A program made the translations under genes and the position numbers. A stretch of DNA of 64,000 nt from Candidatus Omnitrophota bacterium. Lineage in GTDB: Bacteria; Omnitrophota; Gorgyraeia; Zapsychrales; Aceulaceae. Below, piece by piece: positions 46,927-64,000 of the stretch. Each line of letters opens with the position of its first letter. The stretch's first letter is position 1. The notes under the pieces were generated by a model, which saw only the letters and a list, made by a program, of their open reading frames with translations, was not told where the DNA came from and did no database searches. The stretch is from assembly GCA_029564765.1 (NCBI GenBank), contig JAKQPK010000055.1, forward strand, positions 5,255 to 69,254, written 5' to 3'.

Positions 46927-48805
46927 GTGATGGTATTCCTTGTTTTAAATGTTCAACGGCTTCTTTTAAAAGTCTGCAATAAAGGTCAAACCCAATGGAA
47001 GCGATATAGCCATGCTGCTGCTCCCCTAAAAGATTACCAGCGCCTCGGATCTGCAGGTCTTCAAAGGCGATATTAAATCCTGAGCCAAGCCCGCTGAATT
47101 TCTGAAGCGCGTCCAGCCGAGAGCGAGCGACTGAAGAGATCTCGTGCCGGGGTGGTGTTAGAAAATACGCGTAGGCTTTCTTTTCAAATCGGCCTACCCT
47201 GCCGCGTAGCTGGTGCAGGTCCGAAAGCCCAAAATGGTCCGCGTTATTGACAATGAGCGTGTTCGCGTTAGGAATATCAATGCCAGACTCAATGATCGTT
47301 GTGCACGCGAGAACATCGATCTCGCCTTTTAAGAATTGTAGCATAATGCTTTCTAGCAAGCGGCCTGGCATTTGGCCGTGCGCTACGCAAACCCTGGCGC
47401 GAGGAACCAGCCTTTTTATCATATTACCAACTTTTTCGATATCTTCAACCCGATTGTGAAGAAAAAAGATCTGGCCCTTTCGCCTGAGTTCTTTTTCGAT
47501 CGCATCTTTGACAAGCTCTTCATCGAACTCTACGATGTGCGTTGAAATGGGGACGCGATTTTGCGGTGGCGTGTTGATCGCGGACATATCTTTAGCCCCA
47601 GTGAGCGCCATGTAGAGCGTCCGTGGGATCGGTGTTGCGCTCAATGTCAGGACGTCCACCAGAAGCCGGAAGTGCTTGAGCCGTTCCTTAGCCTTGACCC
47701 CAAAACGCTGTTCTTCGTCGATGATCACAAGGCCAAGGTCTTTAAAATGCACATCCTTAGATAGTAATCGGTGTGTTCCAATGACGATATCGACCTTTCC
47801 GTTCTCAAGGCCCGCGACAATATCTTTTTGTTCGCGTTTTGTCCGAAAGCGATTGAGCATCGCAACTTGGACTGGAAAGTTCTTGGTGCGCTTTGAAAAA
47901 TTGTAATAATGTTGCTCAGCGAGGATAGTTGTTGGGACGAGGATCGCGACTTGCTTGCTCGCTGTCACGGCTTTAAAGCTGGCTCGTAGGGCGATCTCGG
48001 TCTTGCCGTAGCCCACATCCCCGCAAATAAGCCTATCCATAGGAGATATTGAGTTCATGTCCTGTTGGACCTCTTGCCAGGCTTTGATCTGATCCGGGGT
48101 TTCTGTATATGGAAAAGTTCTCTCGAATTCTTTCAGCCAAGGTGTCTGCGCTGGGAATGCGAATCCGGAAAGACTGGCCCGTAAGGCTTGTATATGCAAT
48201 AGTTCTGCCGCAAAACGTTGGATGCGCTTTTGAATACGTGAGCGGAGTTTTTTCCATTCGCCGGACCCCAGCTTGTAAACGCGAGGAGGCTTTTTGTGAA
48301 AGCCTACATATTTTTGGACAAGGTGGATATCTTTCTTGGGAACATAGAGTTTATCGCCTTGCGCGTATTCTACAACAAGATGTTCTTGCTCTTGCTGGCT
48401 GAAAGGGGTCTGTTCAATGCCTAAGAATTTTCCGATCCCATAATGATTGTGAACGACATAATCCCCTTGCTGAATATCAACAAAGGTGTTAAGCGGTGTT
48501 TCCGCACTGAAAATTTCGGCTTTTGTTTTTTTGTAAGGCAGGATAATGACGATCTGGTGTTGCCACAGGATCTTCCCTGAGGTAAGGTCAAAGGTTGTGA
48601 TCGACTCTATCGTGTCGTTGTTGACATCGATGCGGATGGGTGCGTCAAAATTGGAAGGAAAAACATCGATAATGCTGCCGCGATGGCTAAGGTCGCCCTC
48701 AGACTGCACGGCCTTAGCGTATTTGTATCCAAAGCGTGTTAATTCAGCGAGAACAACGTCTAAAGATACGATCTGCGCAACAAAGAGTTTCAGCGACTGA
48801 AACAT
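46916..48805 (-). CDS. mfd: transcription-repair coupling factor, short form lacking the N-terminal UvrB-homology module
   Basis: 629 aa; Walker [30 protein letters not shown] helicase motifs; N-terminus begins near the Mfd GSIIDVFP motif; secDF ends 10 bp upstream, so there is no room for a longer N-terminus. Confidence 0.8.
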
Positions 48806-48814
48806 GAAGGTATA

Positions 48815-51022: not shown

Positions 51023-51045
51023 AGATATTCCTTCGGTTTTAAGGA

Positions 51046-51336
51046 TTACGAGGCGAGGTTGGCCTTTTCCACGCGCGCAACGGCCGTGCGGTCGATCTCA
51101 AGCTTGACATTGTCATCGACACGGATCGTCACTGTTTTTTCCTTGATGTTGACGATCGTTCCGTGAATGCCTCCGCTGGTAACGATCGTGTCGTTCTTTT
51201 TAAGTTCTTCAAGCATTTTTTGGAACTTTTTTTGCTGTTCTTTCTGAGGTTTGATCACCAGAAAATAAAAGATGCCAAAGATCAGCAGATACGGAAAAAG
51301 CGCAATGATCGGGTTGATAGATGCTTCAGGTCCCAT
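51046..51336 (-). CDS. yajC: preprotein translocase subunit YajC
   Basis: 96 aa; single TM; upstream of secDF. Confidence 0.85.
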   Translation of the reverse strand: MGPEASINPIIALFPYLLIFGIFYFLVIKPQKEQQKKFQKMLEELKKNDTIVTSGGIHGTIVNIKEKTVTIRVDDNVKLEIDRTAVARVEKANLAS

Positions 51337-51374
51337 AGAAAACCTCGCTATGTTAAGTGCTTAGGTTAATAGCC

Positions 51375-51623
51375 TTATTTTTTTCGTAATTTCTTGGAGA
51401 GAGTCCGAACAGTATCGCTCATGACAGCACCTTGCGCGACCCATTTGTCTAGCTTCTCGGTATTTACTGCCAAGGCGGCAGGTTTCTTGGAGGGGTCATA
51501 ATGCCCGATGATCTCAAGGACTTTTCCATCGCGTTTACGACTTTTCGGGATCGCGACAATGCGGTAATTGGAAACTTTATTGATCGACTTTCCAATACGC
51601 TGTAAACGAATACATACTTCCAT
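51375..51623 (-). CDS. rpsP: 30S ribosomal protein S16
   Basis: IRLQRIGKS...YRIVAIPKSRKRDGKVLEIIGHYDP...WVAQGAVMSDTV matches the S16 pattern; start set at the internal Met. Confidence 0.8.
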   Translation of the reverse strand: MEVCIRLQRIGKSINKVSNYRIVAIPKSRKRDGKVLEIIGHYDPSKKPAALAVNTEKLDKWVAQGAVMSDTVRTLSKKLRKK

Positions 51624-51703
51624 GACAAACACCTCTTTCTTATTACAAATATAGTTAATAATAGGTATATATTAACGGTTTTTTTGAATATTGCAACGGG
51701 TTT

Positions 51704-53215
51704 TTATATGAAATGTTCATGCGCCATGGCGATCGCGGAGAGCTGGGCCTTGGCTTTGTTCTTTGTTTCGATGTATTCCTTGCGCGGGTCAGAATCCGCG
51801 ACAATGCCGGCTCCTGCTTGAAAATATGCTGTTTTGCCCTTGATAAGGATCGTACGGATGGTAATACAAGTATCAAGGTTGTGATCGAATCCAAAATATC
51901 CAACTGCGCCGGCATAGGGTCCGCGCGCCAGCGGTTCTAAGCGGTCAATGATCTCCATGGCGCGAATTTTTGGCGCCCCAGAAACTGTTCCTGCTGGGAA
52001 TGTAGCCTCAAGAACATCAAAAGGGGTCCTGCTTTTTGCCAGGCTACCTTTGACATTGCTGACGATATGCATGACATGGGAATAATTCTCGATTTTCATG
52101 AATTCGGAGACCTTGACCGTCCCTTGAGCGCAAACACGCCCGAGGTCGTTACGCCCAAGATCGACCAGCATGACATGCTCTGCGCGTTCCTTAGGGTCTT
52201 GTAAAAGTTCTTGCGCTAAGGCAATGTCTTGTTTTTCATCCTTGCCCCGCGGACGGGTTCCAGCGATAGGCCGTGTTTCGACAATGTTGTTCTCGCAGCG
52301 GACCAGCAATTCCGGCGAGGAGCCAACGATATATGTGTCCGCGAATTTCAAGAAATACATATACGGCGAGGGATTGACCGCTCTGAGCGCGCGATAGATG
52401 TTCAGAGGGTCCGTGGCGATTGGTGTTTGGAAGCGTTGAGATAAAACGACTTGAATGATATCCCCCTGATGGATATGCTTTTTTGCGGCAACAACAGCTT
52501 TTTGAAATTGTTTTTCAGTCAAAGTTGATGATACGCGCAACTTGAAAGGCTTTTGCGGTTTCTTAGCTAATGCGCTCTGAGGCGTTCTTGAGCGGAGCGC
52601 GGCAATAACGCATGCGATGCGTTTTCGGGCTGAAGCGTAGATCTTTTGTTTTTGTTTTCGCAACGCGTTATGCGGCACGTACGCATTGCAGACGATCTTT
52701 ATTTTATGGCTGAGATGGTCAAAAATGATCAGATCGTTGACCAGGGCTAAGACGACATCTTGTGTCTTCAGGTCATCTTTAGGCTGATCTGGAAGTTTTT
52801 CGAAAAATCTAACAGTATCGTATCCGATGTAGCCGATCAGCCCACCGCAGAATTTCGGCACACCTTTAACAGGGACAAATTGATAAGCCGAAAGGATCTC
52901 TTGCGCGTGCGTTAATGGTGTTTTGAGGATCGAGAATTTCTTTACTTGAGGGGTTCTTGAAGAAAAGGAAATAATTTCCCCGTTTGTGCCTTTACTTTTA
53001 AAGATCAGTTGTGGGTCCTTGGCTAAGAATGAGTATCGGCATACTTTTTCTGTGCCTTCTACAGATTCTAGAAGAATGGCGTATCGTGAGTTGCGCGCGA
53101 GCTTGAAGTACGCAGAGACAGGGGTTTCTAGGTCCCCTAGTATTTCTTGGCATACAGGGATCAAGTTGCCGTGTTTTGTGAGCGTGATAAATTCTTTTTC
53201 CGTCGGAGAGATCAT
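51704..53215 (-). CDS. chorismate-binding enzyme, anthranilate/aminodeoxychorismate synthase component I family (TrpE/PabB-like)
   Basis: About 503 aa from the internal start; C-terminal chorismate-binding core (…PAGTVSGAPKIRAMEII…GPYAGAVGYF…). Confidence 0.75.
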   Translation of the reverse strand: MISPTEKEFITLTKHGNLIPVCQEILGDLETPVSAYFKLARNSRYAILLESVEGTEKVCRYSFLAKDPQLIFKSKGTNGEIISFSSRTPQVKKFSILKTPLTHAQEILSAYQFVPVKGVPKFCGGLIGYIGYDTVRFFEKLPDQPKDDLKTQDVVLALVNDLIIFDHLSHKIKIVCNAYVPHNALRKQKQKIYASARKRIACVIAALRSRTPQSALAKKPQKPFKLRVSSTLTEKQFQKAVVAAKKHIHQGDIIQVVLSQRFQTPIATDPLNIYRALRAVNPSPYMYFLKFADTYIVGSSPELLVRCENNIVETRPIAGTRPRGKDEKQDIALAQELLQDPKERAEHVMLVDLGRNDLGRVCAQGTVKVSEFMKIENYSHVMHIVSNVKGSLAKSRTPFDVLEATFPAGTVSGAPKIRAMEIIDRLEPLARGPYAGAVGYFGFDHNLDTCITIRTILIKGKTAYFQAGAGIVADSDPRKEYIETKNKAKAQLSAIAMAHEHFI

Positions 53216-53220
53216 AGCCT

Positions 53221-53565
53221 TTAAATTTTGCGATAGAAGCAGCTCTTTTTTCCCGTGTGACAGGCAGCGCCGACTTGACGCACAAGGATCAAAAGCGTGT
53301 CCAGATCGCAATCATAGAATATTGATTTGACATATTGAAAATGGCCCGAGGTCATTCCTTTGACCCAGAATTCTTTGCGTGAACGTGACCAAAAACATGT
53401 CTTTCCGCCTTTGATCGTTTTTTTCAATGAGGCCAGGTTCATATAGGCCAGCATGAGCACATCCTTTGTTCGGTAATCTTGCACAATGGCTGGAAGAAGG
53501 CCGTCTGCGTTAAAGCGTAGCTGGCCTAGTGTTCGTGTTGTGATGCGTCGTGTTTCATTGTTCAT
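53221..53565 (-). CDS. hisI: phosphoribosyl-AMP cyclohydrolase
   Basis: 114 aa; [20 protein letters not shown]...[18 protein letters not shown]...C..D.D HisI core. The start overlaps the hisF stop (ATGA); the upstream part of the track ORF is a spurious extension. Confidence 0.85.
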
Positions 53566-54317
53566 GATCGGACCTCGATAGATTTTGATTTTAAGAATTG
53601 TTTGACTTGCGGGATCGGGATCTCCCCGTAATGAAAGATCGATGCAGCCAAAGCCGCGTCCGCGGCTGTTTTGGTGAAAACATCCCAAAAATGCTCCAAG
53701 GTTCCCGCGCCTCCGGAGGCGATCACGGGAATGTTCACGGCACTGCAAATAGCGTCCGTTAGTTCTAGGTCGTAGCCATCTTTTGTCCCGTCCTTGTCCA
53801 TGCTGGTCAGAAGGATCTCTCCAGCACCAAGCTCTTGGGCTTCTTTTGCCCAAAGGATCGCGTTGCGTGGGGTCAAGGTCCTTCCTCCGTGCGTGTAGAC
53901 TTGCCAGCTGTTACCTTGCCGTTTAGCGTCAATGGCAACAACGATGCACTGACTGCCAAATTTTTCCGCAGCATCTTTGATCAATTTTGGGTTCTGCACG
54001 GCGGCAGTGTTGAGGGAGACTTTGTCCGCGCCGGCGTTGAGCAGGTCGCGAATATTCTGAACAGAGTCGATCCCTCCCCCGACCGTTAACGGCATAAAGA
54101 CTTGTTCTGCCGTGTGGCGTACGACGTCTAAGAAGATGGGCCGTTTTTCGTGGCTGGCAGTGATATCAAGAAAAACGATCTCATCGGCCTGAGCCTTGTC
54201 ATAGGTCTTGGCGCATTCTACTGGATCACCCGCGTCGCGAAGGTGGACAAAATTAATGCCCTTAACGACACGGCCGTCCTTAACATCTAAACATGGGATT
54301 ATTCTTTTTTTGAGCAT
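53562..54317 (-). CDS. hisF: imidazole glycerol phosphate synthase, cyclase subunit
   Basis: [18 protein letters not shown]-terminus; 251 aa. Confidence 0.95.
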
Positions 54318-55030
54318 AGCTGGATCGCGTCCGAAAGGTTGATCGTTTGTTCATACAGCGCTTTGCCAATGATCACGCCGTAAAGATTTTTTGCGTTGAC
54401 GTATGCCAGTTGCTTAATATCATCGATCTGCGATATCCCTCCCGAAGCGATAACATTGACAGAGGTTGACGCTAGGATCTCGGCTAAACTTTTCAGGTTA
54501 GGCCCTTGGAGCATGCCGTCAGTCGCGATGTCCGTATAAATGAGCGTTCGAAGGCCAAGACGCTCAAGTTCAGGAATGATCGATAGAGCTGAGACATGAG
54601 AAACCGTGGTCCAGCCTTTTATCGCTACATATCCGTTGACACAGTCGAGGCTGACGGCGACCTTATCACCATAAGTTGATAAAATATCCTTCAGAAATTC
54701 TTTGTCCTCGATCGCTCTTGTCCCGATAATGATCCGCATTAATCCAAAGCCAAGGACTTCCTGAACCGTTTCCATGGCGCGAATACCGCCGCCCATCTGG
54801 ACATTGACGCCAATTTCTCTTTGGATCTTTTGGATGATCGCAAGATTCTGTGGCTTTCCTTTTTCGGCCCCATCAAGGTCGACGATGTGGATCAAGGTCG
54901 CGCCCTGCTGCTTCCAGCGCTGGGCAACAGATAAAGGATCTTGGTCGTAGACCTTTTCTTTAGCGAATTGGCCTTGCGTTAAGCGAACGACCTTGCCGTT
55001 TTTGATATCGATTGCGGGAATGATGATCAT
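54299..55030 (-). CDS. hisA: 1-(5-phosphoribosyl)-5-[(5-phosphoribosylamino)methylideneamino]imidazole-4-carboxamide isomerase
   Basis: [18 protein letters not shown]-terminus; 243 aa. Confidence 0.9.
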
Positions 55031-55632
55031 ATGGAAAAAGCGCAGAAATTCTTTAAAATGGTCAGGCCTGCCTCCTGACTTTTTTCAGGATGAAATTGCA
55101 CCGCGAACAGATTATCTTTCCAGACCGATGAAGTGAACGCAAGACCATAATCCGTTGTTGTCGCGATAATATCTTTTTGTTGCGGCTCCACAAAAAACGA
55201 ATGGCAGAAATAAGCGTGCGTCAGCGGTTGAATATTTTTGAGAAAAGGACATGCGGTTCTTTTGATCGCAAGCTCGTTCCAGCCCATGTGTGGGACCTTG
55301 AGGTTTTGAAATCTTTTTACTTTGCCAGCAAGGATCCCGAGCGTTTTGATCGTTCCTCCCTCACAGCTTTCATCAAAAAGAAGCTGAAGCCCAAGACAAA
55401 TGCCCAAAAAAGGTTTTCCGTCCTTTATTGCCTTTTTGATCGGGTCAACAAGGTTCAGTGCTGATAATCGCTGGATAGCGGGAGCGATCGCCCCTACACC
55501 CGGCAAAATGATTTTATCGGCCTTAAGGATATCCTCAGGCTGATCAGTAACCTGCGCGCGCGCTCCGACATGCTCCAAGGCCTTGTGAACGCTGCGCAAA
55601 TTTCCTGAACCATAATCTATGATCGCGATCAT
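55027..55632 (-). CDS. hisH: imidazole glycerol phosphate synthase, glutaminase subunit
   Basis: IAIIDYGSGNLRSV; class-I GATase triad region. Confidence 0.9.
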   Translation of the reverse strand: MIAIIDYGSGNLRSVHKALEHVGARAQVTDQPEDILKADKIILPGVGAIAPAIQRLSALNLVDPIKKAIKDGKPFLGICLGLQLLFDESCEGGTIKTLGILAGKVKRFQNLKVPHMGWNELAIKRTACPFLKNIQPLTHAYFCHSFFVEPQQKDIIATTTDYGLAFTSSVWKDNLFAVQFHPEKSQEAGLTILKNFCAFSI

Positions 55633-56249
55633 CAGTCAATAATTCCCTTGGTCGACGGGATGCCTTGACGGCGCTGGTCGATCTGAGCGGCCTGGTCAAG
55701 GGCAAGCCCAAGGGCTTTAAAGATCGTTTCAAGGTTTGTGTGCAGATCTTCGCAGATATTTTTGATATCAACGATGATATTAGCGCCCAAATGATGCGCG
55801 AACGATTCTAAAAAGTGTTCTAAGTGGGTCAAAGAATACCCTTCTTGAGAGCCTGCTTTTAAAGCCCCTTGCGTGTTCAGCCGGAAATAGCCACGCCCGC
55901 TAAGATCAAGGATCACTTCCGTGAACGTTGATTCCATGGGAGCCGCGCCAAAGCCAAAACGGCGAATACGTTGCCGATCCCCTAAGGCTTTTCTGAAGAT
56001 CTTCCCGAGGACAATGCCAATATCTTCGTTCACGTGATGGATATCAATGTTCGTATCGGCTTTCTTGACCTCGAGGTCAATATCAAAGTGTCCATGAAAA
56101 GCAAAGAGCTCCAGCATATGATCCAAGATGCCGATATTGGTCTTGATCTTTGAATTGCCACAACCATCAATATTGACCTTAGCGACAATTTCTGTTTCTG
56201 AACTTTTTCGATTTTCTGCGGCAGTCCTTGCTTTTTTAAATGTTAACAT
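55632..56249 (-). CDS. hisB: imidazoleglycerol-phosphate dehydratase
   Basis: 205 aa; HHxxE-type IGPD motifs (DIHHVNEDIG, HHLGANII). Confidence 0.9.
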   Translation of the reverse strand: MLTFKKARTAAENRKSSETEIVAKVNIDGCGNSKIKTNIGILDHMLELFAFHGHFDIDLEVKKADTNIDIHHVNEDIGIVLGKIFRKALGDRQRIRRFGFGAAPMESTFTEVILDLSGRGYFRLNTQGALKAGSQEGYSLTHLEHFLESFAHHLGANIIVDIKNICEDLHTNLETIFKALGLALDQAAQIDQRRQGIPSTKGIID

Positions 56250-56263
56250 ACGACTTACCTTTC

Positions 56264-57487
56264 TTATTGAAAGCGAATTTGTATGGAATCGTTGTGTTTT
56301 TTCAAGCCCTCTAAGAGCGCGACTTTTTCAAGAGGATCACGGATGCGTTCTAAGGCTTTTTTGGAATAGCAAATAATGTGACTTGTTTTCGTAAAATCCG
56401 ATAGGCAGATCCCTGAAAAGAACCGCGCGGTGCCCATCGTTGGCAGTACATGGCTTGGGCCAGCGATGTAGTCACCTACCGCTGTTGGGCTAAATGGCCC
56501 CAAAAAGATCGCTCCCGCATGCTTGATCCTTGAGGCGATACTGACAGCATTGTTGCTGAGGATCTGAAGATGTTCAGGGGCGATCTTGTTGGCCACATCG
56601 ATCGCCTCGTCAATGTTCTTCACATAAACGATATAGCCGTTGGGGATGTGTTTTTTTAGTTGGCGCACAAGCTTGCGGGATGTGGTGATCAGGATCGCCA
56701 ATCCTCCGACGTGTTCCGCTTGAGATTCAAGGTCCGCTAAAATATACGCGGGGTTACTGTTTCGGCTTGCGATAATCGCTAATTCGCTTGGGCCCGCGAG
56801 CATGTCAATATCGACATAACCAAAAAGTTGTCGTTTAGCTTCTGTCACGTACATGTTCCCTGGCCCGATGATCTTGTCGACCTTGGGGATCGTTTTTGTT
56901 CCAAGCGCTAATGCCGCGATAGCTTGGGCGCCCCCGATCTTGTATATTTCATCGACCTTAAGGAGATTCGCGACCGCGAGAATATAGGGGTTAATATGCC
57001 CTGTCTTGTCTGGAGGTGCCACTAAAACGATACGTTTTACGCCAGCGATCTTGGCCGGGATGACCGTCATATAGACGGATGAGACCAAGGGCGCTGTCCC
57101 TGCCGGGATGTACACACCGACAGAATCCAAAGGCAGGATCTTTTCTTTAAGCAAGACACCATCTTCATTTTTTACTCGACGAGGCTTCTTCAGCTGTTTT
57201 TCATAAAAACGAGAAACATTATTAATGATCAGCTTAAGCGTTCCCACGAATTCACTCGTGATATTTTGGAAAGCCCCGCTGATTTCGGCTTCGGCGACAC
57301 GGATCTGTTTTTGCGTCAGTTTTACGTTGTCGAAGCGGCGGGTGTACTTCAAGACCGCTTCATCACCGTTGATCTTGATATCGTCAATGATCCGCCTTAC
57401 TTTTTCTTCAATGTGTTTCTTGCGCGCGTAGAGATTGCGGTCGCACAATCTTTCAAGGCCTGTTGAGGGTGATCTTAGGATCTTCAT
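56264..57487 (-). CDS. hisD: histidinol dehydrogenase
   Basis: 407 aa; HisD core (…GGAQAIAALALGT…SQAEH…). Confidence 0.9.
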   Translation of the reverse strand: MKILRSPSTGLERLCDRNLYARKKHIEEKVRRIIDDIKINGDEAVLKYTRRFDNVKLTQKQIRVAEAEISGAFQNITSEFVGTLKLIINNVSRFYEKQLKKPRRVKNEDGVLLKEKILPLDSVGVYIPAGTAPLVSSVYMTVIPAKIAGVKRIVLVAPPDKTGHINPYILAVANLLKVDEIYKIGGAQAIAALALGTKTIPKVDKIIGPGNMYVTEAKRQLFGYVDIDMLAGPSELAIIASRNSNPAYILADLESQAEHVGGLAILITTSRKLVRQLKKHIPNGYIVYVKNIDEAIDVANKIAPEHLQILSNNAVSIASRIKHAGAIFLGPFSPTAVGDYIAGPSHVLPTMGTARFFSGICLSDFTKTSHIICYSKKALERIRDPLEKVALLEGLKKHNDSIQIRFQ

Positions 57488-60138
57488 AGGAGTTGTTTTA
57501 TCAGATTTTCAATGTATTGAAAAGTTTTATTTAGGTCTTGGCGTTCTTTGCTGCCAGCCTGCGCTAATTGAGGACGTCCGCCCCCGCTGCCGGCTATGCT
57601 TTCAGAAACTTTCGCAATGATTTCATTGGCTTTAATATTCTTTGCGATCAGATCATCTGTGACGGCTGTCACCAAAGCTGTCCCGCTGGCCGCTGTGCTT
57701 ACGCCAACGGTGATCACAGCAGATCTCGCTTTTTGCTTGATCATGTCCGTGATCTTTTTGAGCATGTCCATATCAATGCTGTCATCGCTAAAATCTTTAG
57801 AGATGCATTTTACATCCTTGATCATGGTTGCGTTTTTGATCATTTCATCCAGCGATGCCGTGATCGCCTGAAGCCTGGCGGCAGAAAGATTTTTTTCAAG
57901 CTCTTTTATTCTTTTGGCTTGATTCTCCAGGCGAGCAACGATCTCTTCTTTGGGAGCCTTGAGGATATTTGCCGCTTGGGCGATCTTGCGCTCGAGGTCA
58001 TGAATAAGCGCGATCGCGTAGCGGCCTGTGGTCGCTTCCATGCGGCGCACACCTTGCGCGACAGCGCCTTCGCTAAGGATCTTGAACAGGCCGATCTCTG
58101 CGACGTTGCCCAAATGGGTCCCGCCACATAACTCCTTGGATGTTTCACCTACTGAAACAACGCGCACCTTTTGATGATATTTTTCGGCAAAAAAGGCAAG
58201 GGCTCCCTGCTTTGTTGCCTCCAAAAGAGACATTTCGGCTTTCTTTACGGGTGTGCATTCACGAATACGATCGTTGACAAAATCTTCGACCTTGATAATC
58301 TCATCATCGGTAAGCGCTTTTGGATGAGTGAAGTCAAAACGTAATCGATCATTGGAGACCAAGGAACCTTGTTGCTGAACATGGGTTCCCAATATTTTTC
58401 TTAAGGCGGATTGCAGAACGTGTGTTGCCGTATGATTGCGCATGATATCCATGCGGCGTTCTCGATCGATCTGCGCGACAACCGCATCTCCTTGCGCGAG
58501 TGTTCCTTCTTTGACGATGCCAACATGGACAAAGACATCATTGATCTTGTATGTATGGTCGATATCAATGATCGCTTGACTTGTCGTAAGGGTTCCTGTA
58601 TCCGCGATCTGCCCGCCCGATTCTGCGTAAAAGGGTGTTTCGCTCAACACGACTTGTACTTGCGCAGGTGCGGAGATCTTTTCAACCCCCTGTGATCCTG
58701 AGAACAGCTTTATGATCTTTGTTTTTGTTTCGTTCTTTTCATATCCGCAAAACTGTGTTTTAGGGACGCGGGTAAGATCGATGTCGCATGTTGTGAACAC
58801 ATCCCCTGTCATTTTACTTGCCGCTCGTGATTTTTCACGCTGTTGATTCATCTTGATCTCAGATTCACTTAATCCTTGACGGATCGTGTTTTGCGTTATG
58901 CCAACGATCTCTGCCGTGGCGCGTATCGCTGAATACGTCAGGCCGTAGGTGTCACGATATTTAAAGAAAATATCTGCAAGTTTTTTAGTGTCGGTATCAT
59001 TTTTGATCTGTTCAAGTTCTTTTTTGAGCTCAGGGATACGCTCGTTCCTTACTTTGTGATACGCCATTTCCGTTTTTTGTATCCAGGAGGCGATATTCTC
59101 CTGCTTGTCGCTAAGTTCTTTGTAGGGGTCTTTCATGGCCTCAACGACTGACGGAACAAGCTGGTGAATAAAAGAAGCACGAGATTTTGACAGAAGAATA
59201 TCCGTGATATCCGCGATCAACTTTTTGATCACGTATCCGCGGCCTTCATTCGACGGGATGACACCATCAGCGATCCCAAAGACGATCGCGCGCATGTGAT
59301 CTGCCATGACATAGCGTTCTTTTGTCGATAGAGTGATCGCGTGCTTACGGGCGTTGGCGTCGATCGCGGATAGGATCGGCACAAATAGGTCGATCTCAAA
59401 ATTGGTGTTTTTTCCCTGAACGACCGCGGCGAGGCGCTCGAGGCCCATGCCGGTATCAATATTTTTATTGGGCAACGGTTTTAAAAGTCCATCTTCTTGG
59501 CGGTCGTATTGAGTAAAAACAAGGTTCCAGATCTCCGCGAAGCGTCCGCAATCACATGCCGGGCTGCAATTTGTTCGTTTGCAGCCAACTTCAGGGCCGT
59601 AATCAAAGAAGATCTCAGAGCATGGACCGCAAGGGCCGTTGGGGCCTTTTGTTTTAGCTTCTGATGGCCAGAAATTGCTTTTATCCCCTAGCTCAACGAT
59701 CCTGGAAGAGGCGATCTTGATATCTTTTAGCCAGATGTCCTTGGCTTCTTTATCGTCTTTGTAGACAGAGACCCAAAGCTTGCTCTCAGAGATTTGTATG
59801 ACGCGCGTGAGGAATTCCCAGGCCCAGGCGATCGCTTCTTTTTTGAAATAATCGCCAAAGGAGAAATTGCCCAGCATTTCAAAGAAGGTATGGTGAAAGG
59901 CGGTAACGCCAACCTGCGCGAGATCGTCCGTGCGAAGGCATTTTTGAGAAGTCACTGCTCGGGTGTAATGATCGACCTGCCCTAAGAATTGTTTTTTGAA
60001 TTGCTGCATCCCTGCGGTCGTAAAGAGAACTGTTGGGTCCTCTTTGGGCACCAGCGAGTCGCTAGCGATGATCGCGTGTTTTTTTCCAGCAAAGAACTCG
60101 ATGAACTTTTTTCGTATTTCAATCGTGGTCATGATCAA
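57484..60138 (-). CDS. alaS: alanyl-tRNA synthetase
   Basis: 884 aa; class-II AlaRS N-terminus (FIEFFAGKKHAIIASDSLVP), editing domain, C-Ala domain. Confidence 0.95.
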   Translation of the reverse strand: MIMTTIEIRKKFIEFFAGKKHAIIASDSLVPKEDPTVLFTTAGMQQFKKQFLGQVDHYTRAVTSQKCLRTDDLAQVGVTAFHHTFFEMLGNFSFGDYFKKEAIAWAWEFLTRVIQISESKLWVSVYKDDKEAKDIWLKDIKIASSRIVELGDKSNFWPSEAKTKGPNGPCGPCSEIFFDYGPEVGCKRTNCSPACDCGRFAEIWNLVFTQYDRQEDGLLKPLPNKNIDTGMGLERLAAVVQGKNTNFEIDLFVPILSAIDANARKHAITLSTKERYVMADHMRAIVFGIADGVIPSNEGRGYVIKKLIADITDILLSKSRASFIHQLVPSVVEAMKDPYKELSDKQENIASWIQKTEMAYHKVRNERIPELKKELEQIKNDTDTKKLADIFFKYRDTYGLTYSAIRATAEIVGITQNTIRQGLSESEIKMNQQREKSRAASKMTGDVFTTCDIDLTRVPKTQFCGYEKNETKTKIIKLFSGSQGVEKISAPAQVQVVLSETPFYAESGGQIADTGTLTTSQAIIDIDHTYKINDVFVHVGIVKEGTLAQGDAVVAQIDRERRMDIMRNHTATHVLQSALRKILGTHVQQQGSLVSNDRLRFDFTHPKALTDDEIIKVEDFVNDRIRECTPVKKAEMSLLEATKQGALAFFAEKYHQKVRVVSVGETSKELCGGTHLGNVAEIGLFKILSEGAVAQGVRRMEATTGRYAIALIHDLERKIAQAANILKAPKEEIVARLENQAKRIKELEKNLSAARLQAITASLDEMIKNATMIKDVKCISKDFSDDSIDMDMLKKITDMIKQKARSAVITVGVSTAASGTALVTAVTDDLIAKNIKANEIIAKVSESIAGSGGGRPQLAQAGSKERQDLNKTFQYIENLIKQLL

Positions 60139-60607
60139 TTACCTGTATTGACTGAAGAACTAGGCTTTCTTCAAACCCCCTGCGCATTAAATAACCATAA
60201 AGACGTCTTTTAAGGACTGAAGGCTCTAAATTTTTATAACGCGCAAGCCGTTTATTAGCGATCTGCTCAACGACACCCGCTTCATCAACGCTTTTTAAGC
60301 ATTCGGACAGGGTTTTTACGATGATCGTATCCGAAATGCCTTTCTGGCGCAACTCGCATCGGATGCGATGTCGTCCCAAGCCCTTGAATAGGCGCATTTT
60401 GATCCAGTCCCGCGCGAACTGCTGATCATTGATAAGCTCAAGGGTTTTTAGGTATTGAACGAGCTTGTTGATGATCTTGGACGGATATCTTTTTTGTTTT
60501 AGCCTTTGGGCGATCTCTGCTTGGCTTCTTTGACGTATTCTTAGAAGGCGAAAGCAGTAAGTTTTTCCTTTTTGGAGCAGAATATCGTTATCACGCGGTA
60601 CGGTCAC
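60119..60607 (-). CDS. recX: RecA regulator RecX
   Basis: 162 aa helical-repeat protein immediately downstream of recA. Confidence 0.8.
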   Translation of the reverse strand: MTVPRDNDILLQKGKTYCFRLLRIRQRSQAEIAQRLKQKRYPSKIINKLVQYLKTLELINDQQFARDWIKMRLFKGLGRHRIRCELRQKGISDTIIVKTLSECLKSVDEAGVVEQIANKRLARYKNLEPSVLKRRLYGYLMRRGFEESLVLQSIQVIDHDHD

Positions 60608-60609
60608 GA

Positions 60610-61626
60610 TTATTTTGCGATAGACATCTTTTCGCGGATCTTTTTCTCGATCTGGGTTAAGATCTTGGGATTTTCCTTTAAGAATACCTTGGCGCTATCA
60701 CGTCCCTGTCCGATCTTTTCATTTTCATAGGAAAACCAAGATCCTGACTTGACGATCAACCCTTCCTTGATCCCTAAGTCTAAGATGTCGCTTGTTCGTG
60801 AAATGCCTTCATCAAAATAGATCTCAAATAACGCTTCACGGAAAGGTGCCGCGACCTTGTTTTTGACGATCTTGGCCTTGACAACATTTCCGACAACGTC
60901 TTCGCCTTTTTTAATGCTTTCGACCCGGCGAAGATCAATGCGCACTGATGCGTAGAATTTGAGTGCGCGTCCGCCTGTTGTTGTTTCTGGAGAACCGAAC
61001 ATGACACCGATCTTCATGCGGATCTGGTTGATAAAAATAACACATGTTTTTGATTTGCTGATCGTTGCCGTGAGTTTGCGAAGCGCTTGGGACATCAATC
61101 TTGCTTGAAGCCCCATGTGAGAGTCCCCCATTTCCCCTTCGATCTCCGCGCGAGGCGTAAGGGCCGCGACAGAATCAATGACGACGAGGTCAACGGCATT
61201 GGAACGGACAAGTGTTTCCGCGATCTCAAGGGCTTGCTCTCCGGTATCTGGCTGGGATACGAGAAGATCATCCAATTTGACCCCTAAGGTTTTGGCATAG
61301 TTTGAATCAAAGGCATGTTCCGCATCAATGAAAGCAGCAACACCACCTTGTTTTTGGATCTGATTGATAATGCTTAAGGTCAAGGTTGTTTTACCGGAGG
61401 ATTCAGGGCCGTAGATCTCGATCACGCGTCCTTTAGGAACTCCGCCGACGCCAATGGCGGCGTCCAAGGCTAAAGAGCCTGTCGGGATCGCTTCGATCTG
61501 GACAGCGACGTTTTGGCTTAAGGTCATGATCGATCCCTTGCCAAATTGTTTTTCGATCTGACTTAAGGCGAGTTCAAGAGCTTTTTTCTTATCGGCGTGA
61601 ATTTCAGTCTTCTTCTCTTCTTTCAT
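60610..61626 (-). CDS. recA: recombinase RecA
   Basis: Walker [10 protein letters not shown]; [15 protein letters not shown]. Start set at the Met preceded by AAAGGGGGA. Confidence 0.95.
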
Positions 61627-61729
61627 AAATCCCCCTTTGATGTTGTGAAGCTGAATTATACATGAGGCTTTTTGAGTTGTCAAATGCTAAGCCATAGACC
61701 AGAGCATATTATATATATACTTATAGTTA

Positions 61730-62467
61730 TTATGACCGTAGTCGCAGGGATAGAAAGCCAATAGCGGCAATAGCCGCAGTCTCGACCTTTAAAACATTCG
61801 GCCCAAGCGTGACAGGGATGGCTCCCCGGCTGAGCGCAAGTTGTGCTTCTTCTTTGGTAAAATCCCCTTCAGGACCAATGAATACGACGATGCGCTCTTT
61901 TGACCTTAGCAGGTCAGATGCAATCTCTGGGAGCTTCTGGCTCGGGGCTTGAAGGGCTCCAAAGAGCGCAAGATCATTTTTTGATATCAGGTCTAGGGCT
62001 TGCGCAAACGTCATTACAGAGTGGACCTTGGGAAGAAATGCTCTTTGAGATTGTTTGCAGGCATTGATCGCTACTTCTTCATAGCGGCGATGGCATCGCG
62101 CAAGAGTTTCAGAGGCTTTAGAGATCTCTGTACGTGTTGTTCTTAAAGGGATGATCTCGTCGATCCCAAGCTCGGTGCATTTTTCAATAATGGTCTCGAA
62201 TTTTGATCGTTTAGGGATAGCACAAGCAAGGGTTAAGAGAGGATGCTGTTGTCGCACTTCTTCTAATGAATTGATCCTAAAAGTAACTTTGTGAGACGAA
62301 GCGGAAATGATCGTCGCACTGGCCTGAAGGCCTTTGCCATTAAAAACAAAAACATCATCATTGAGCTTAAAACGCAAGACATTGATGAGATGATGGATCT
62401 CATCTTTGTCTAAGAGAACAGTTTCCTTTTGGGAAAGGATGAAGTTTGGAATGTAACAACGCGTCAT
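61730..62467 (-). CDS. rsmE: 16S rRNA (uracil1498-N3)-methyltransferase
   Basis: 245 aa; RsmE-like PUA N-terminus and SPOUT core. Confidence 0.85.
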   Translation of the reverse strand: MTRCYIPNFILSQKETVLLDKDEIHHLINVLRFKLNDDVFVFNGKGLQASATIISASSHKVTFRINSLEEVRQQHPLLTLACAIPKRSKFETIIEKCTELGIDEIIPLRTTRTEISKASETLARCHRRYEEVAINACKQSQRAFLPKVHSVMTFAQALDLISKNDLALFGALQAPSQKLPEIASDLLRSKERIVVFIGPEGDFTKEEAQLALSRGAIPVTLGPNVLKVETAAIAAIGFLSLRLRS

Positions 62468-62489
62468 TCTAACCAGTCAGCAAGCTTTT

Positions 62490-63542
62490 CTATTTTCGAG
62501 GCTCTGGTACCTTTCCAGCTGCTGGATCAAGGACGCACTCACAATCTTTGAGAATATATCCTTCTTGAGAGCAATCAATAGGACATTCAGCATCAGGGTT
62601 GACACCTATCAATTTATCTCCATATTCTTTGAGCTCAGGATATAGTTCAGTTAATTGTTCCCATGTTTGCGGATTTTCTTCGACCCATTTTATAAATTCA
62701 TCAGGGCTTGATTCGAGCATCCTTATAACTTCATTGTAGGTCGATTCTAATTCTTCTTTTGTGAGAGGGCTATCATTCTGAACTATTTCTTCCAATTCTG
62801 GATATTGTTCAAGAAGTTTTTGCCACATATCAGGATTTTCTTCGATCCATTTAGCAAGCTCTTCAGGGTTTGAATCGCTTAGCTCAATAAGCTTGTTATA
62901 AGTTTCTTGGATGATGGGATCAATATTCGGATCTGGTTCAGTAATGGGATCAAGAGGATCGTCAACCGTAGGCACGCCACCTGTCCCACCGTTACCAGGA
63001 TCGGGTTCTTCAATAGGATCATCAGGCGTAGGCACGTCCCCTGTTCCAGGATCTGTCCCAACGCCTCCGGTTCCAGGATCTGTCCCAACTCCTCCGGTTC
63101 CGCCGCCATTTCCACCTTGACATGTTCCACCACCCGGCTGCGTTGAGCCACCTGTTGTTGTATTCAATGTAAGGCCTGAGCAGCTAGCCCCAGAGCAGTT
63201 AATATTGCCGCTTGAATTAATAACGAGCGAATAATTTCCATTGTTTTTTGCGAATGTTGCTAATTGTGAGGCGTTATTCGCAACACCTATGCTGAATCCG
63301 GAAGGCACATTGACGATCGTGTCAAGCTGGGCGAGCGTAGCCGCGTACTGACCATTATTAAGAAAATAGCGTTTTTGCGCACAATAGATCTCGTAAAGAG
63401 TTTTTTCAGCTGCTTTGACACGCTGATTTTCGATCGCGCGCGGCAGTTGAGGCACAACAAGAGCTGTTAATAGACCGACAATGACAACAACGATGGTGAT
63501 CTCGATAGCAGAGAAGCCTTTAGATGTTCTGAAAGATCTCAT
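62490..63542 (-). CDS. type IV pilin-like protein with long repeat-containing C-terminal extension (paralogue of 20056..20436)
   Basis: Class-III signal KGFSAIEITIVVVIVGLL. The pilin domain resembles the 20056 gene (KRYFLNNGQYAATLAQLD vs ERYFLENSAFATALADLD; NCSGASCSG vs SCSGSGCT). It is followed by a G/T/P/D-rich linker, two acidic helical repeats of about 45 aa (…EELAKWIEENPDMWQKLLEQYPELEE… / …DEFIKWVEENPQTWEQLTELYPELKE…) and a Cys-rich tail. Confidence 0.7.
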   Translation of the reverse strand: MRSFRTSKGFSAIEITIVVVIVGLLTALVVPQLPRAIENQRVKAAEKTLYEIYCAQKRYFLNNGQYAATLAQLDTIVNVPSGFSIGVANNASQLATFAKNNGNYSLVINSSGNINCSGASCSGLTLNTTTGGSTQPGGGTCQGGNGGGTGGVGTDPGTGGVGTDPGTGDVPTPDDPIEEPDPGNGGTGGVPTVDDPLDPITEPDPNIDPIIQETYNKLIELSDSNPEELAKWIEENPDMWQKLLEQYPELEEIVQNDSPLTKEELESTYNEVIRMLESSPDEFIKWVEENPQTWEQLTELYPELKEYGDKLIGVNPDAECPIDCSQEGYILKDCECVLDPAAGKVPEPRK

Positions 63543-63640
63543 TTTTTCCTCCCAAGTTATAATTAAATAACAATAATAACTACACTTTTCTAATTAAAGT
63601 ATAGCATATATAGAGTAGTTTCGCTGAAAACAAAATAAAA

Positions 63641-63713
63641 TGGACCGAGGGGGAGTCGAACCCCCGACCTTCTGATTGCGAACCAGACATTCTCCCAGCT
63701 GAACTATCGGCCC
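63641..63713 (-). tRNA. tRNA-Ala (anticodon CGC)
   Basis: RC = GGGCCGATAGTTCAGCTGGGAGAATGTCTGGTTCGCAATCAGAAGGTCGGGGGTTCGACTCCCCCTCGGTCCA; G3:U70 alanine identity pair; CCA not encoded. Confidence 0.85.
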
Positions 63714-63734
63714 ATAAAATTTGATCATTTTGAT

Positions 63735-64000
63735 CTAAGGAATCGTGCTTGAGAAACTTGGAAGATTAAAAACAGAGGTAAGCGTGTATTCAGGGTTTGT
63801 TAGATCATCTGCCGGCTGGCCCGTGTTGAATCGGCCAGCAAGTTTTACTCTTACTGAAAAAAGATTCGTCGCAGGATTATTCTGGAGAGTTGCCTCGAAA
63901 ACGGTGATGTTCTTGAATCTCTGGATCTCTGAGCTGCAGTTTGTGCTGGAATTTGCCGCAGTACAATATCTTACAATAAATTGAAGTGGATCATATTCGT
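63735..64000 (-). CDS. C-terminal fragment of an unknown protein (N-terminus beyond right edge)
   Basis: The minus-strand frame is open from the window edge for 87 codons (…NCSSEIQRFKNITVFEATLQNNPATNLFSVRVKLAGRFNTGQPADDLTNPEYTLTSVFNLPSFSSTIP*), with its stop at 63735-63737; not in the ORF track because it lacks a start inside the window. Confidence 0.3.
   Translation of the reverse strand, partial: EYDPLQFIVRYCTAANSSTNCSSEIQRFKNITVFEATLQNNPATNLFSVRVKLAGRFNTGQPADDLTNPEYTLTSVFNLPSFSSTIP

What the first reader, a model, noticed from the sequence alone, without database searches (positions are those of the whole stretch)
62490..63542. Pilin-like protein with an unusual C-terminal extension, paralogous to a minimal pilin 42 kb away; no pilus assembly genes in the window
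Seen in sequence: both genes (20056..20436 and 62490..63542) begin with a class-III prepilin signal (G-F-T/S-L/A-I-E) and share a conserved core (…RYFL.N…A..LA.LD…; …C.G..C…). The second one continues with a Gly/Thr/Pro/Asp-rich linker, then two acidic helical repeats of about 45 aa (…WIEENPDMWQKLLEQYPELEE… and …WVEENPQTWEQLTELYPELKE…), then a Cys-rich tail (…AECPIDCSQEGYILKDCECV…). Neither gene is next to pilB/pilC/pilD/pilQ or gsp genes here. Inference: a tip-located or minor-pilin-like adhesin whose C-terminal module is displayed at the end of a type-IV filament or pseudopilus. The module appears novel.
Basis: partly seen in the sequence, partly recalled or inferred. Interest (0 to 1): 0.55.

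Follow-up and report, generated by a model that had tools for sequence, protein, structure and literature searches.

The report
Pilin carrying a helical-repeat head
This is a real but rare type IV pilin of an uncultured Omnitrophota bacterium that carries an extra acidic helical-repeat domain on a long flexible tether, and it sits at the end of a complete pilus-assembly gene cluster lying just beyond the window edge.

Summary
The gene 62490..63542 (minus strand, 350 aa) is real and under purifying selection. All described parts are present.
- Prepilin signal MRSFRTSKG|FSAIE, with Gly-1, Phe+1 and Glu+5 invariant in four orthologues.
- Small pilin core, 36% identical to the 126-aa orphan pilin at 20056..20436.
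- An 80-aa Gly/Thr/Pro/Asp linker.
- Two 42-aa helical repeats, 50% identical to each other.
- A Cys-rich tail, which is not conserved.

The "orphan" impression is a window-edge artefact. On longer contigs with the identical gene, the same strand carries a full type-4-filament cluster immediately upstream:
- a PilM/GspL-like fusion, a secretin, a PilB/GspE-type ATPase and a PilC/GspF platform;
- three major pilins and five minor pilin-like genes;
- tRNA-Ala, then this gene.

The last minor pilin's 3' end is in the window (63735..64000).

The C-terminal module is not wholly novel. It scores at the Pfam threshold for the ubiquilin/STI1-like domain and shares its pattern of Pro-capped 11-residue helices, but it has Trp/Tyr/Leu where ubiquilin STI1 has its Met-rich groove, and it has no structural match.

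It fits the known class of "modular pilins", with a module type not catalogued there. The family is very narrow: one 50%-identity cluster among 1.84 billion representatives. Display on the filament and ligand binding are inferred, not shown.

The parts
62490..63542 (-). Complete gene for the 350-aa modular prepilin, stop codon included
   Evidence: ORF. An identical protein occurs on 12 public contigs. Four orthologues are 51-100% identical. dN/dS is 0.12-0.19 in pilin, linker and module.
63548..63553 (-). Shine-Dalgarno-like GGGAGG, 5 nt upstream of the ATG
   Evidence: Read directly from the sequence.
63516..63542 (-). Class III (prepilin) leader peptide MRSFRTSKG, aa 1-9, with predicted cleavage after Gly9
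   Evidence: Sequence. G9, F10 and E14 are invariant. TIGR02532 scores 16.9 bits against a cut-off of 16.3.
63162..63515 (-). Mature pilin module, aa 10-127: hydrophobic alpha1N (FSAIEITIVVVIVGLLTALVVP, with Gly14 and Pro22 in mature numbering), alpha1C, a beta-sheet, and the C116-x4-C121 loop
   Evidence: The GspG model matches the N-terminal half at E 1e-10. The core is 36% identical to the orphan pilin. A profile of the core finds only 99-164-aa pilins. AF2 gives helix plus 4-5 strands, but at low confidence.
62922..63161 (-). Gly/Thr/Pro/Asp-rich acidic linker, aa 128-207, containing the invariant Cys141
   Evidence: Composition and net charge of -13. AF2 pLDDT is below 50, with no secondary structure. 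Length varies among the orthologues.
63043..63101 (-). 27-bp tandem repeat, 2.2 copies, encoding TGGVGTDPG units within the linker
   Evidence: Tandem Repeats Finder, 96% matches.
62769..62921 (-). Helical repeat 1, aa 208-258: four short helices, the last three opening with Pro-containing caps (SNPEE, ENPDM, QYPEL)
   Evidence: Self-alignment. AF2 helices at pLDDT 70-87. Pfam UBQLN1 hit over aa 212-260.
62607..62768 (-). Helical repeat 2, aa 259-312, with the same four-helix pattern
   Evidence: 21 of 42 residues identical to repeat 1. AF2 helices. W, Y, N, P and E are invariant across the orthologues.
62493..62606 (-). Variable tail, aa 313-350, with four Cys (320, 324, 334, 336), predicted as a small beta-hairpin
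   Evidence: Not conserved in P0003 and P0004. dN/dS 0.68.
63640..63714 (-). tRNA-Ala (CGC) between the last minor pilin gene and the modular pilin gene
   Evidence: ARAGORN. It holds the same position in the orthologous loci L002, L007 and L009.
63735..64000 (-). 3' end of a 198-aa pilin-like gene (A|LTFTE signal) cut by the window edge. It is the last of five minor pilin-like genes in the upstream type-4-filament cluster.
   Evidence: The window tail is identical to L002 from position 9543. ORF L002 9212..9808. The orthologue in L009 is 74% identical.
20056..20436 (-). Orphan 126-aa minimal pilin (G|FTLIE), the closest paralogue of the pilin module
   Evidence: Pfam N_methyl scores 29.9 bits. 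Pilin_GH (27.9) and ComP_DUS (27.0) fall just under their cut-offs. It lies between a carbohydrate-kinase gene and a PFK gene.

Best explanation
The gene encodes a modular type IV pilin that belongs to the type-4-filament (T4aP-like/T2SS-like) gene cluster immediately upstream of it.

Proposed mechanism:
1. The prepilin inserts into the inner membrane through its hydrophobic N-terminal helix.
2. A prepilin peptidase cuts after Gly9 and methylates Phe1.
3. The small pilin module is polymerised as a low-abundance subunit into a filament made mainly of the three near-identical 134-142-aa major pilins. Assembly is driven by the neighbouring PilB/GspE-type ATPase, PilC/GspF platform, PilM/GspL-like alignment protein and secretin.
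4. The 80-residue acidic Gly/Thr/Pro/Asp linker holds a roughly 12-kDa head away from the filament surface.
5. The head consists of two STI1-like four-helix repeats and most likely acts as a protein-binding module that extends what the filament can bind.

Shown:
- the signal motif and the homology of the pilin core;
- the repeat architecture;
- conserved synteny with the machinery;
- purifying selection on pilin, linker and module.

Inferred: processing, incorporation into the filament, surface display and ligand binding.
For: Signal and core:
- The class III signal has invariant G-1, F+1 and E+5.
- The pilin core is homologous to ordinary short pilins.

Gene context:
- On contigs carrying the identical gene, the same strand reads: PilM_2/T2SSL fusion, two small genes, secretin, MshEN+T2SSE ATPase, T2SSF platform, three N_methyl pilins, five pilin-like genes, tRNA-Ala, then this gene.
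- The same order is found in the 75%-identical orthologue's locus.
- It is also found in the 57%-identical orthologue as far as its contig reaches.

Selection:
- dN/dS is 0.17 in the pilin module, 0.12 in the linker and 0.19 in the helical module.

Module:
- It is predicted as 2 x 4 helices at pLDDT 70-87.
- UBQLN1/STI1-like Pfam hits occur in all four orthologues.
- hhalign to a ubiquilin STI1 region gives 88% probability.
- STI1 domains are peptide-binding helical hands (PMC13083928).

Precedent:
- The "pilin carrier plus grafted effector module" design is established. PMC8179133 reports more than 1,200 modular pilins and shows PilB of S. sanguinis to be an adhesin.
Against: - There is no direct evidence of expression, processing or assembly.
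- A prepilin peptidase and a retraction ATPase were not located. The upstream walk failed.
- A tRNA gene separates this gene from the minor pilin genes. It is followed after 22 bp by rsmE-recA-recX on the same strand, so co-regulation with the pilus cluster is not shown. No consensus promoter or terminator was found on its strand.
- The AF2 model of the pilin module is of low confidence.
- The STI1 resemblance sits at threshold, and the full-length protein scores below it (24.5 against 27).
- The Met-rich groove that defines ubiquilin STI1 function is absent: there are 2 Met in 105 residues.
- Foldseek found no similar solved or viral structure.
Confidence: 0.6

Rival explanations
1. It is a pseudopilus-tip subunit of a T2SS-like machine, a positional analogue of GspK. 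The neighbouring cluster would be a secretion system whose short periplasmic pseudopilus carries this protein at its tip. The tethered chaperone-like helical module would then work inside the periplasm or secretin vestibule, for example by engaging exoproteins, and would not be a surface adhesin.
For: - The gene order D-E-F-G(x3), followed by a run of small pseudopilin-like genes ending with the largest (350 aa, similar in length to GspK), resembles gspD-K operons.
- The platform scores best as GspF, 330 bits against 305 for PilC. The ATPase scores nearly as well as GspE as it does as PilB.
- The first gene is a PilM/GspL-type fusion.
- The 115-aa gene weakly matches XpsI/GspI.
- STI1-type domains are client-binding modules (PMC13083928).
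Against: - There was no T2SSK Pfam hit at E <= 1.
- Glu5 is conserved, whereas GspK characteristically lacks it.
- The module is a C-terminal add-on and not an insertion in the beta-sheet.
- The ATPase aligns end to end with the PilB model and has the MshEN c-di-GMP-binding N-terminus.
- The secretin aligns end to end with the PilQ model but only over its C-terminal half with GspD.
- Omnitrophota are reported to encode type-4a pili almost universally (PMC10066038).
Confidence: 0.15
2. It is a pilin-like membrane anchor that is never polymerised. The N-terminal helix would simply tether a periplasmic protein to the inner membrane. The linker and NP-capped helical repeats would act as a spacer or a regulatory or structural element of the envelope or of the machinery.
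For: - Very similar NP-capped 11-residue helical repeats fill the central region of DotG/IcmE-like (TrbI-domain) type IVB secretion proteins.
- The tRNA gene and the tight spacing to rsmE loosen the link to the pilin operon.
- The module has no detectable adhesin-type domain.
Against: - The full polymerisation signature is strictly conserved: G-1, F+1, E+5, plus Gly14 and Pro22 of the mature protein.
- The pilin globular core is under purifying selection.
- Its position at the end of a run of nine pilin genes is conserved in all loci that extend that far.
Confidence: 0.15
3. It is a DNA-uptake (competence) pilin, functionally linked to the recA-recX genes just downstream.
For: - The paralogous pilin core scores just under the threshold of Pfam ComP_DUS, 27.0 against 27.3. 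The modular pilin hits it weakly at E 0.03.
- The gene is followed by rsmE, recA and recX on the same strand in all four orthologous loci.
Against: - The C-terminal 220 residues carry a net charge of about -37, which is unsuited to binding DNA.
- ComP_DUS hits are generic to this class of small pilins.
- Nearly every gene in the 64-kb window is on the same strand, so co-orientation carries little weight.
- The recA/recX/alaS neighbourhood consists of housekeeping genes.
Confidence: 0.04

Closest known systems
Modular type IV pilins (Raynaud et al. 2021, PMC8179133), e.g. Streptococcus sanguinis PilB (vWA module) and PilC (lectin module)
   Same: - An N-terminal class III signal and a small pilin module.
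- A linker followed by a C-terminal non-pilin module.
- The gene is encoded with the filament machinery and the other minor pilins.
   Different: - The module is all-alpha, strongly acidic and STI1-like, whereas the best-known examples carry a beta-rich adhesin or lectin domain.
- The linker is very long (80 aa) and low-complexity, not short.
- The host is a diderm with a secretin.
- This module type is not among the 264 published architectures.
- No function has been shown.
GspK, the tip pseudopilin of type II secretion systems
   Same: - It is the largest pilin-like protein (about 330-350 aa) and the last in a series of pseudopilin genes downstream of the D-E-F-G genes.
- It carries an additional alpha-helical domain.
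   Different: - There is no T2SSK domain hit.
- Glu5 is present.
- The extra domain is appended through a linker, not inserted into the pilin beta-sheet.
- The pilin core is closest to small GspG/PilA-like pilins.
STI1 / ubiquilin-1-like domain (Pfam PF23195, PF17830; structure of the Dsk2 STI1 domain, PMC13083928)
   Same: - Runs of short, roughly 11-residue helices, each opening with an (N/D/S/Y)-P cap and with hydrophobic residues at positions 4, 5, 8 and 9.
- Pfam UBQLN1 is hit by all four orthologues.
- hhalign aligns 81 columns at 88% probability.
   Different: - The protein is bacterial, exported and fused to a pilin.
- Trp, Tyr, Leu and Ile stand where ubiquilin has a Met-rich groove.
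- It is highly acidic.
- It is arranged as two tandem four-helix units rather than one six-helix hand.
- No Foldseek match was found to any solved structure.
- Homology versus convergence of a simple helix-cap repeat is unresolved.
CofB / TcpB minor pilins of type IVb pili
   Same: [quoted passage not shown]
   Different: - The extra domains of CofB are beta-repeat and beta-sandwich domains that trimerise.
- It belongs to a T4b system with a long leader peptide.
- No sequence similarity was detected here.
Central repeat region of DotG/IcmE-like (VirB10/TrbI family) type IVB secretion proteins
   Same: They are the best non-family hits of the module profile (E 4e-14 to 1e-6). They consist of the same NPxLxxxLxxx helical repeats and also hit UBQLN1, STI1 and XPC-binding Pfam models.
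   Different: - They have many more repeats and are basic to neutral (rich in Lys and Ala).
- They are embedded in an envelope-spanning secretion component.
- They have no pilin module.

Membership tests
Type IV pilin / prepilin (class III signal peptide; TIGR02532, PF07963, IPR012902) | Short basic leader ending in Gly(-1), then Phe(+1) and Glu(+5) | tested here: met
   The signal is MRSFRTSKG|FSAIE. G9, F10 and E14 are invariant in four orthologues.
Type IV pilin / prepilin (class III signal peptide; TIGR02532, PF07963, IPR012902) | A stretch of about 20 hydrophobic residues forming alpha1N, with the helix-breaking Gly14 and Pro22 typical of T4a pilins and pseudopilins | tested here: met
   The mature N-terminus is FSAIEITIVVVIVGLLTALVVP, with G at mature position 14 and P at 22 (read).
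Type IV pilin / prepilin (class III signal peptide; TIGR02532, PF07963, IPR012902) | Score above the curated threshold of the motif models | tested here: inconclusive
   TIGR02532 scores 16.9 against 16.3, a pass. Pfam N_methyl scores 16.6 against 21.2, a fail. The GspG model matches the N-terminal 77 residues at E 1e-10 but falls below its equivalog cut-off.
Type IV pilin / prepilin (class III signal peptide; TIGR02532, PF07963, IPR012902) | Globular alpha-beta pilin fold with a C-terminal disulfide | tested here: inconclusive
   AF2 predicts a long helix plus 4-5 strands, but pLDDT is below 56. C116 and C121 are invariant. A profile of the core retrieves 122 ordinary pilins.
Type IV pilin / prepilin (class III signal peptide; TIGR02532, PF07963, IPR012902) | Cleavage and N-methylation by a prepilin peptidase, followed by polymerisation into a filament | not testable with these tools
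   This needs biochemistry. A prepilin peptidase gene was not located within reach.
Modular pilins (PMC8179133) | An N-terminal pilin module fused through a linker to an extra domain that is not specific to type IV pilus biology | tested here: met
   The architecture is pilin 10-127, linker 128-207, helical module 208-312. The module's relatives occur in non-pilin proteins.
Modular pilins (PMC8179133) | The extra module has a direct role in a filament-mediated function | not testable with these tools
   No experimental system exists for this uncultured lineage.
GspK (T2SS minor pseudopilin K) | T2SSK domain, with an alpha-domain inserted in the pilin beta-sheet | tested here: not met
   There was no T2SSK or GspK hit at E <= 1 in Pfam or NCBIfam. 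The extra domain is C-terminal.
GspK (T2SS minor pseudopilin K) | Absence of Glu5 | tested here: not met
   Glu5 (E14 of the precursor) is invariant.
STI1 / ubiquilin-1-like domain (PF23195, PF17830) | Score at or above the Pfam gathering threshold | tested here: inconclusive
   The full-length protein scores 24.5 against 27. The isolated module scores 28.3 against 27, and all four orthologues hit, best E 6.7e-7. STI1-HOP_DP was not hit.
STI1 / ubiquilin-1-like domain (PF23195, PF17830) | Short helices joined by Pro-containing turns into a helical hand | tested here: inconclusive
   The Pro-capped 10-17-residue helices are present. Their three-dimensional arrangement is uncertain (pTM 0.38), and Foldseek found no match in the PDB.
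STI1 / ubiquilin-1-like domain (PF23195, PF17830) | Methionine-rich hydrophobic groove that binds hydrophobic helices (PMC13083928) | tested here: not met
   There are only 2 Met in the 105-residue module. The conserved hydrophobic residues are Trp, Tyr, Leu and Ile.
PilY1 / PilC tip adhesins | C-terminal beta-propeller domain (IPR008707) in a non-pilin protein | tested here: not met
   No such hit was found. The protein is itself a pilin.
Type IVa pilus versus type II secretion system (the neighbouring machinery) | Equivalog-level assignment of the ATPase, platform and secretin, and presence of a PilT retraction ATPase | tested here: inconclusive
   - ATPase: PilB 627.7 (cut-off 675.65) against GspE 601 (cut-off 630.25).
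- Platform: GspF 330 against PilC 305.
- Secretin: PilQ 193 against GspD 180.
All are below their cut-offs. No PilT or PilD lies in the 10 kb seen.

The most novel reading that the evidence does not exclude
A bacterial type-4 filament of an ultra-small, possibly host-dependent Omnitrophota bacterium displays, on a long acidic tether, a true homologue of the eukaryotic STI1 "helical hand". STI1 is a chaperone-type domain that grips hydrophobic or amphipathic helices. The filament would use it outside the cytoplasm to capture protein segments, for example on a host or prey surface, or secretion substrates at a pseudopilus tip. That would be the first exported, filament-borne STI1-type client-binding domain. 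It would also be a new functional class of modular pilin.
Probability: 0.1. Interest if true: 0.7.

Novelty: new variant of a known kind. Interest (0 to 1): 0.35.

Why it matters
Modular pilins are thought to explain how simple type IV filaments acquire diverse functions. Most catalogued modules are beta-rich adhesin, lectin or enzyme domains.

An all-helical, strongly acidic, STI1-like module on an 80-residue tether is not in the published catalogue. It would extend the known range of what filaments can present.

Omnitrophota are uncultured nanobacteria for which type IV pili are proposed to mediate attachment to hosts or prey (PMC10066038). A lineage-specific head on a pilin is therefore a concrete candidate for a host-recognition determinant.

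The practical impact is limited. The family is confined to one narrow lineage (four sequences), and no function is shown.

Tried and rejected
Searches that found nothing useful:
- **PDB sequence-profile search** returned only spurious helical proteins, such as a designed TIM barrel and spectrin.
- **PHROGs** gave nothing meaningful for the module or for P0029.
- **P0029.** This is the only non-pilin protein with a convincing single-repeat match (hhalign 94.7%). It sits on a 1.9-kb contig with no informative neighbours.
- **Promoter and terminator scans** were uninformative.

The upstream walk for prepilin peptidase and PilT failed four ways:
- The metagenome scan with the PilM fragment found nothing.
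- The metagenome scan with the ATPase returned only hits of 56% identity or less from other organisms.
- The last homologue search returned only a partial PilM on a 2.5-kb contig.

Other checks:
- The GTDB genome scan found a single species, the source of P0002.
- I considered and rejected horizontal insertion at the tRNA, because there is no GC or skew anomaly.
- I considered and rejected GspK and PilY1 membership.
- The full-length AF2 model was too poor (mean pLDDT 49.6) to support statements about the pilin fold.
Full report
**1. The observation**

The ORF at 62490..63542 lies on the minus strand and encodes 350 aa. A GGGAGG ribosome-binding site sits 5 nt upstream of its ATG.

Its N-terminus, MRSFRTSKG|FSAIEITIVVVIVGLLTALVVP, is a canonical class III (prepilin) signal. 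It has a short basic leader, Gly at -1, Phe at +1 and Glu at +5, and Gly14 and Pro22 in the mature helix. TIGR02532 passes its cut-off narrowly (16.9 against 16.3). The GspG model matches the first 77 residues at E 1e-10. Pfam N_methyl is below threshold.

The second gene, 20056..20436 (minus strand, 126 aa, MIKKG|FTLIE), is a clear minimal pilin. N_methyl scores 29.9 bits, and Pilin_GH and ComP_DUS fall just under their thresholds.

The two globular cores are 36% identical over 99 residues, E 3e-13. The shared residues include the RYF motif, LD, and the C-S-G-x-x-C loop (alignment A3).

The remainder of the large protein is as described:
- An 80-residue linker with 24 Gly, 14 Thr, 13 Pro and 10 Asp, net charge -13.
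- Two repeats that share 21 of 42 residues, score 138 against 31 +/- 6 for shuffles.
- A tail with four Cys.

A 27-bp tandem repeat encodes part of the linker.

**2. It is a real, constrained gene of a very narrow family**

A search of 5.8 billion clustered proteins found four members:
- the identical protein, labelled by NCBI as a Candidatus Omnitrophota MAG protein;
- three others at 75%, 57% and 51% identity.

All four share the architecture pilin, linker, two repeats. G9, F10, E14, four Cys (54, 116, 121, 141) and the W, Y, N, P and E pattern of both repeats are invariant.

The Cys-rich tail is missing from two orthologues and reduced in a third. Between the two closest orthologues, dN/dS is 0.17 (pilin), 0.12 (linker), 0.19 (module) and 0.68 (tail).

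An exhaustive HMMER search of 1.84 billion 50%-identity representatives with the module profile found one true family cluster. A scan of one genome per GTDB species found a single species.

**3. The "orphan" status is a window-edge artefact**

The identical protein is on contigs of up to 233 kb. The window's last 1.5 kb is identical to locus L002 from position 9543. Upstream, on the same strand, L002 carries the following:
- a 533-aa PilM_2/T2SSL fusion;
- two small membrane or periplasmic proteins;
- a secretin;
- a 570-aa ATPase with an MshEN N-terminus and a T2SSE domain;
- a T2SSF platform protein;
- three near-identical major pilins of 134, 134 and 142 aa, 76-87% identical;
- five further pilin-like genes of 139, 156, 115, 133 and 198 aa;
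- tRNA-Ala, then the modular pilin.

The 3' end of the 198-aa gene is window 63735..64000.

The same order holds for the 75% orthologue. For the 57% orthologue the contig reaches only as far as the 198-aa homologue (74% identical) and the same tRNA-Ala. The 51% orthologue's contig starts just upstream of the gene.

Inside the window itself there are indeed no assembly genes. It holds only the orphan pilin and two PilZ-domain proteins.

**4. What the machinery is**

The ATPase aligns end to end with the PilB model (627.7 bits) and nearly as well with GspE (601). The platform scores best as GspF. The secretin aligns end to end with PilQ but only over its C-terminal half with GspD. All scores are below the equivalog cut-offs.

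The gene order D-E-F-G-minor pilins is T2SS- or MSHA-like, whereas the ATPase and secretin architectures are T4P-like. I therefore call it a type-4-filament cluster, more likely a T4aP-like pilus. This agrees with the report that type-4a pili are nearly universal in Omnitrophota (PMC10066038).

PilD and PilT were not found within the 10 kb visible. Four attempts to walk further upstream failed.

**5. The pilin module**

Among the ten pilin-like genes, the modular pilin's core is closest to the orphan 126-aa pilin, then to the 139-, 156- and 133-aa minor pilins.

A profile of the globular core retrieved 122 proteins, all 99-164 aa. They are ordinary short pilins of Omnitrophota, Planctomycetota and Phycisphaerae. 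The extension is therefore a lineage-specific fusion onto a common small pilin scaffold.

**6. The C-terminal module**

AF2 predicts two units of four helices each. pLDDT is 70-87 in the helices, with mean 73 and pTM 0.38 for the isolated module. The Cys tail is predicted as a small beta-hairpin.

The sequence reads as a series of roughly 11-residue helices, each opened by an (N/S/Y)-P cap:
- NPEELAKWIEE
- NPDMWQKLLEQ
- YPELEEIVQND

The evidence that this pattern is STI1-like is as follows:
- It is the pattern of STI1/ubiquilin domains.
- Pfam UBQLN1 (PF23195) is hit by all four orthologues, best E 6.7e-7. The isolated module scores 28.3 bits against a gathering score of 27, and the full-length protein 24.5.
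- The module profile's weaker hits are ubiquilins and DotG/IcmE-like TrbI proteins. The central NPxLxxxLxxx repeats of the latter also hit the UBQLN1, STI1-HOP_DP and XPC-binding models.
- hhalign to a ubiquilin STI1 region gives 88% probability over 81 columns.

The solved STI1 domain is a six-helix "hand" with Pro-mediated turns and a Met-rich groove that binds hydrophobic helices (PMC13083928). The present module differs in three ways:
- It has only 2 Met in 105 residues and uses Trp, Tyr, Leu and Ile in that role.
- It is very acidic.
- It has no Foldseek match in the PDB or BFVD.

Homology versus convergence of a simple helix-cap repeat is therefore unresolved.

One unannotated 272-aa metagenomic protein, P0029, has a convincing single-repeat match (hhalign 94.7%) but no informative context.

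**7. Mechanism**

The best-supported reading (about 0.6) is a modular minor pilin of the adjacent filament system:
1. A prepilin peptidase cleaves after Gly9.
2. The subunit is incorporated through alpha1N and Glu5.
3. The long acidic linker holds the two-repeat helical head away from the filament.
4. The head serves as a protein-binding module.

Conserved Glu5 argues that it polymerises like a normal subunit. Tip location is possible but not specifically supported, and with an 80-residue tether shaft incorporation is equally feasible.

The rivals are:
- a GspK-position pseudopilus-tip subunit acting in the periplasm (0.15);
- a non-polymerised pilin-anchored periplasmic protein (0.15);
- a competence pilin linked to recA/recX (0.04), disfavoured by a net charge of about -37 over the C-terminal 220 residues.

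**8. Comparison with what is known, and novelty**

The design "pilin carrier plus grafted effector module" is established. PMC8179133 reports more than 1,200 modular pilins in 264 InterPro architectures, in both monoderms and diderms. GspK and CofB are structural precedents.

No STI1 or ubiquilin-type architecture appears in that catalogue. The catalogue depends on InterPro signatures, which this module barely triggers.

The finding is therefore a new variant of a known kind: a rare, lineage-restricted modular pilin with an unusual all-helical, acidic, STI1-like head.

It is moderately interesting for pilus biology and for Omnitrophota host interaction. It is not categorically new, and its function remains inferred.

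Noticed in passing
window 63735..64000 (-); L002 9212..9808: The window's last 266 bases are the 3' end of a 198-aa pilin-like gene (signal A|LTFTE). It is the final member of a run of five minor pilin-like genes belonging to a complete type-4-filament cluster just outside the window.
   Followed up: yes
L002 7469..9808: All five small pilin-like genes upstream have Ala, not Gly, at the -1 cleavage position: A|FTFIE, A|ITLME, A|VSLVE, A|LTMTE and A|LTFTE. The major pilins, the orphan pilin and the modular pilin have G|F. The L009 orthologue of the 198-aa gene has Gly at -1.
   Followed up: partly
L002 6104..7420: There are three tandem major-pilin genes of 134, 134 and 142 aa, 76-87% identical to each other. 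This suggests recent duplication or antigenic or functional diversification of the filament's main subunit.
   Followed up: partly
window 63640..63714 (-): A tRNA-Ala (CGC) sits between the last minor pilin gene and the modular pilin gene. It is conserved at that position in three orthologous loci. There is no GC or skew anomaly around it.
   Followed up: yes
window 14204..14575 (-) and 43809..44186 (+): Two stand-alone PilZ-domain (c-di-GMP receptor) genes lie in the window. The pilus ATPase outside the window also carries a c-di-GMP-binding MshEN N-terminus, which hints at c-di-GMP control of the filament.
   Followed up: no
window 28530..32915 (-), 32931..33392 (-), 33410..35155 (-): A 1461-aa ORF and its two upstream neighbours (153 and 581 aa) have no Pfam family on record. 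Large uncharacterised ORFs are a noted feature of Omnitrophota.
   Followed up: no
window 1..64000: Almost every gene in the 64-kb window is on the minus strand. Same-strand adjacency, such as pilin-rsmE-recA-recX-alaS-his, is therefore weak evidence for operon membership.
   Followed up: partly
window 63043..63101 (-); L007 orthologue: The linker contains a 27-bp tandem repeat of 2.2 copies. The 75% orthologue carries an extra linker block, so linker length appears to evolve by repeat expansion and contraction.
   Followed up: partly
proteins P0006, P0008, P0010, P0012, P0013: DotG/IcmE-like proteins (TrbI/VirB10 domain) of type IVB secretion systems have central regions built from NPxLxxxLxxx helical repeats. 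These regions score strongly on the eukaryotic UBQLN1, STI1 and XPC-binding Pfam models (up to 81 bits).
   Followed up: partly
(profile search with alignment A3): The profile search with the pilin cores did not list the four modular pilins P0001-P0004, even though their sequences were rows of the query alignment. This looks like a tool behaviour and remains unexplained.
   Followed up: no
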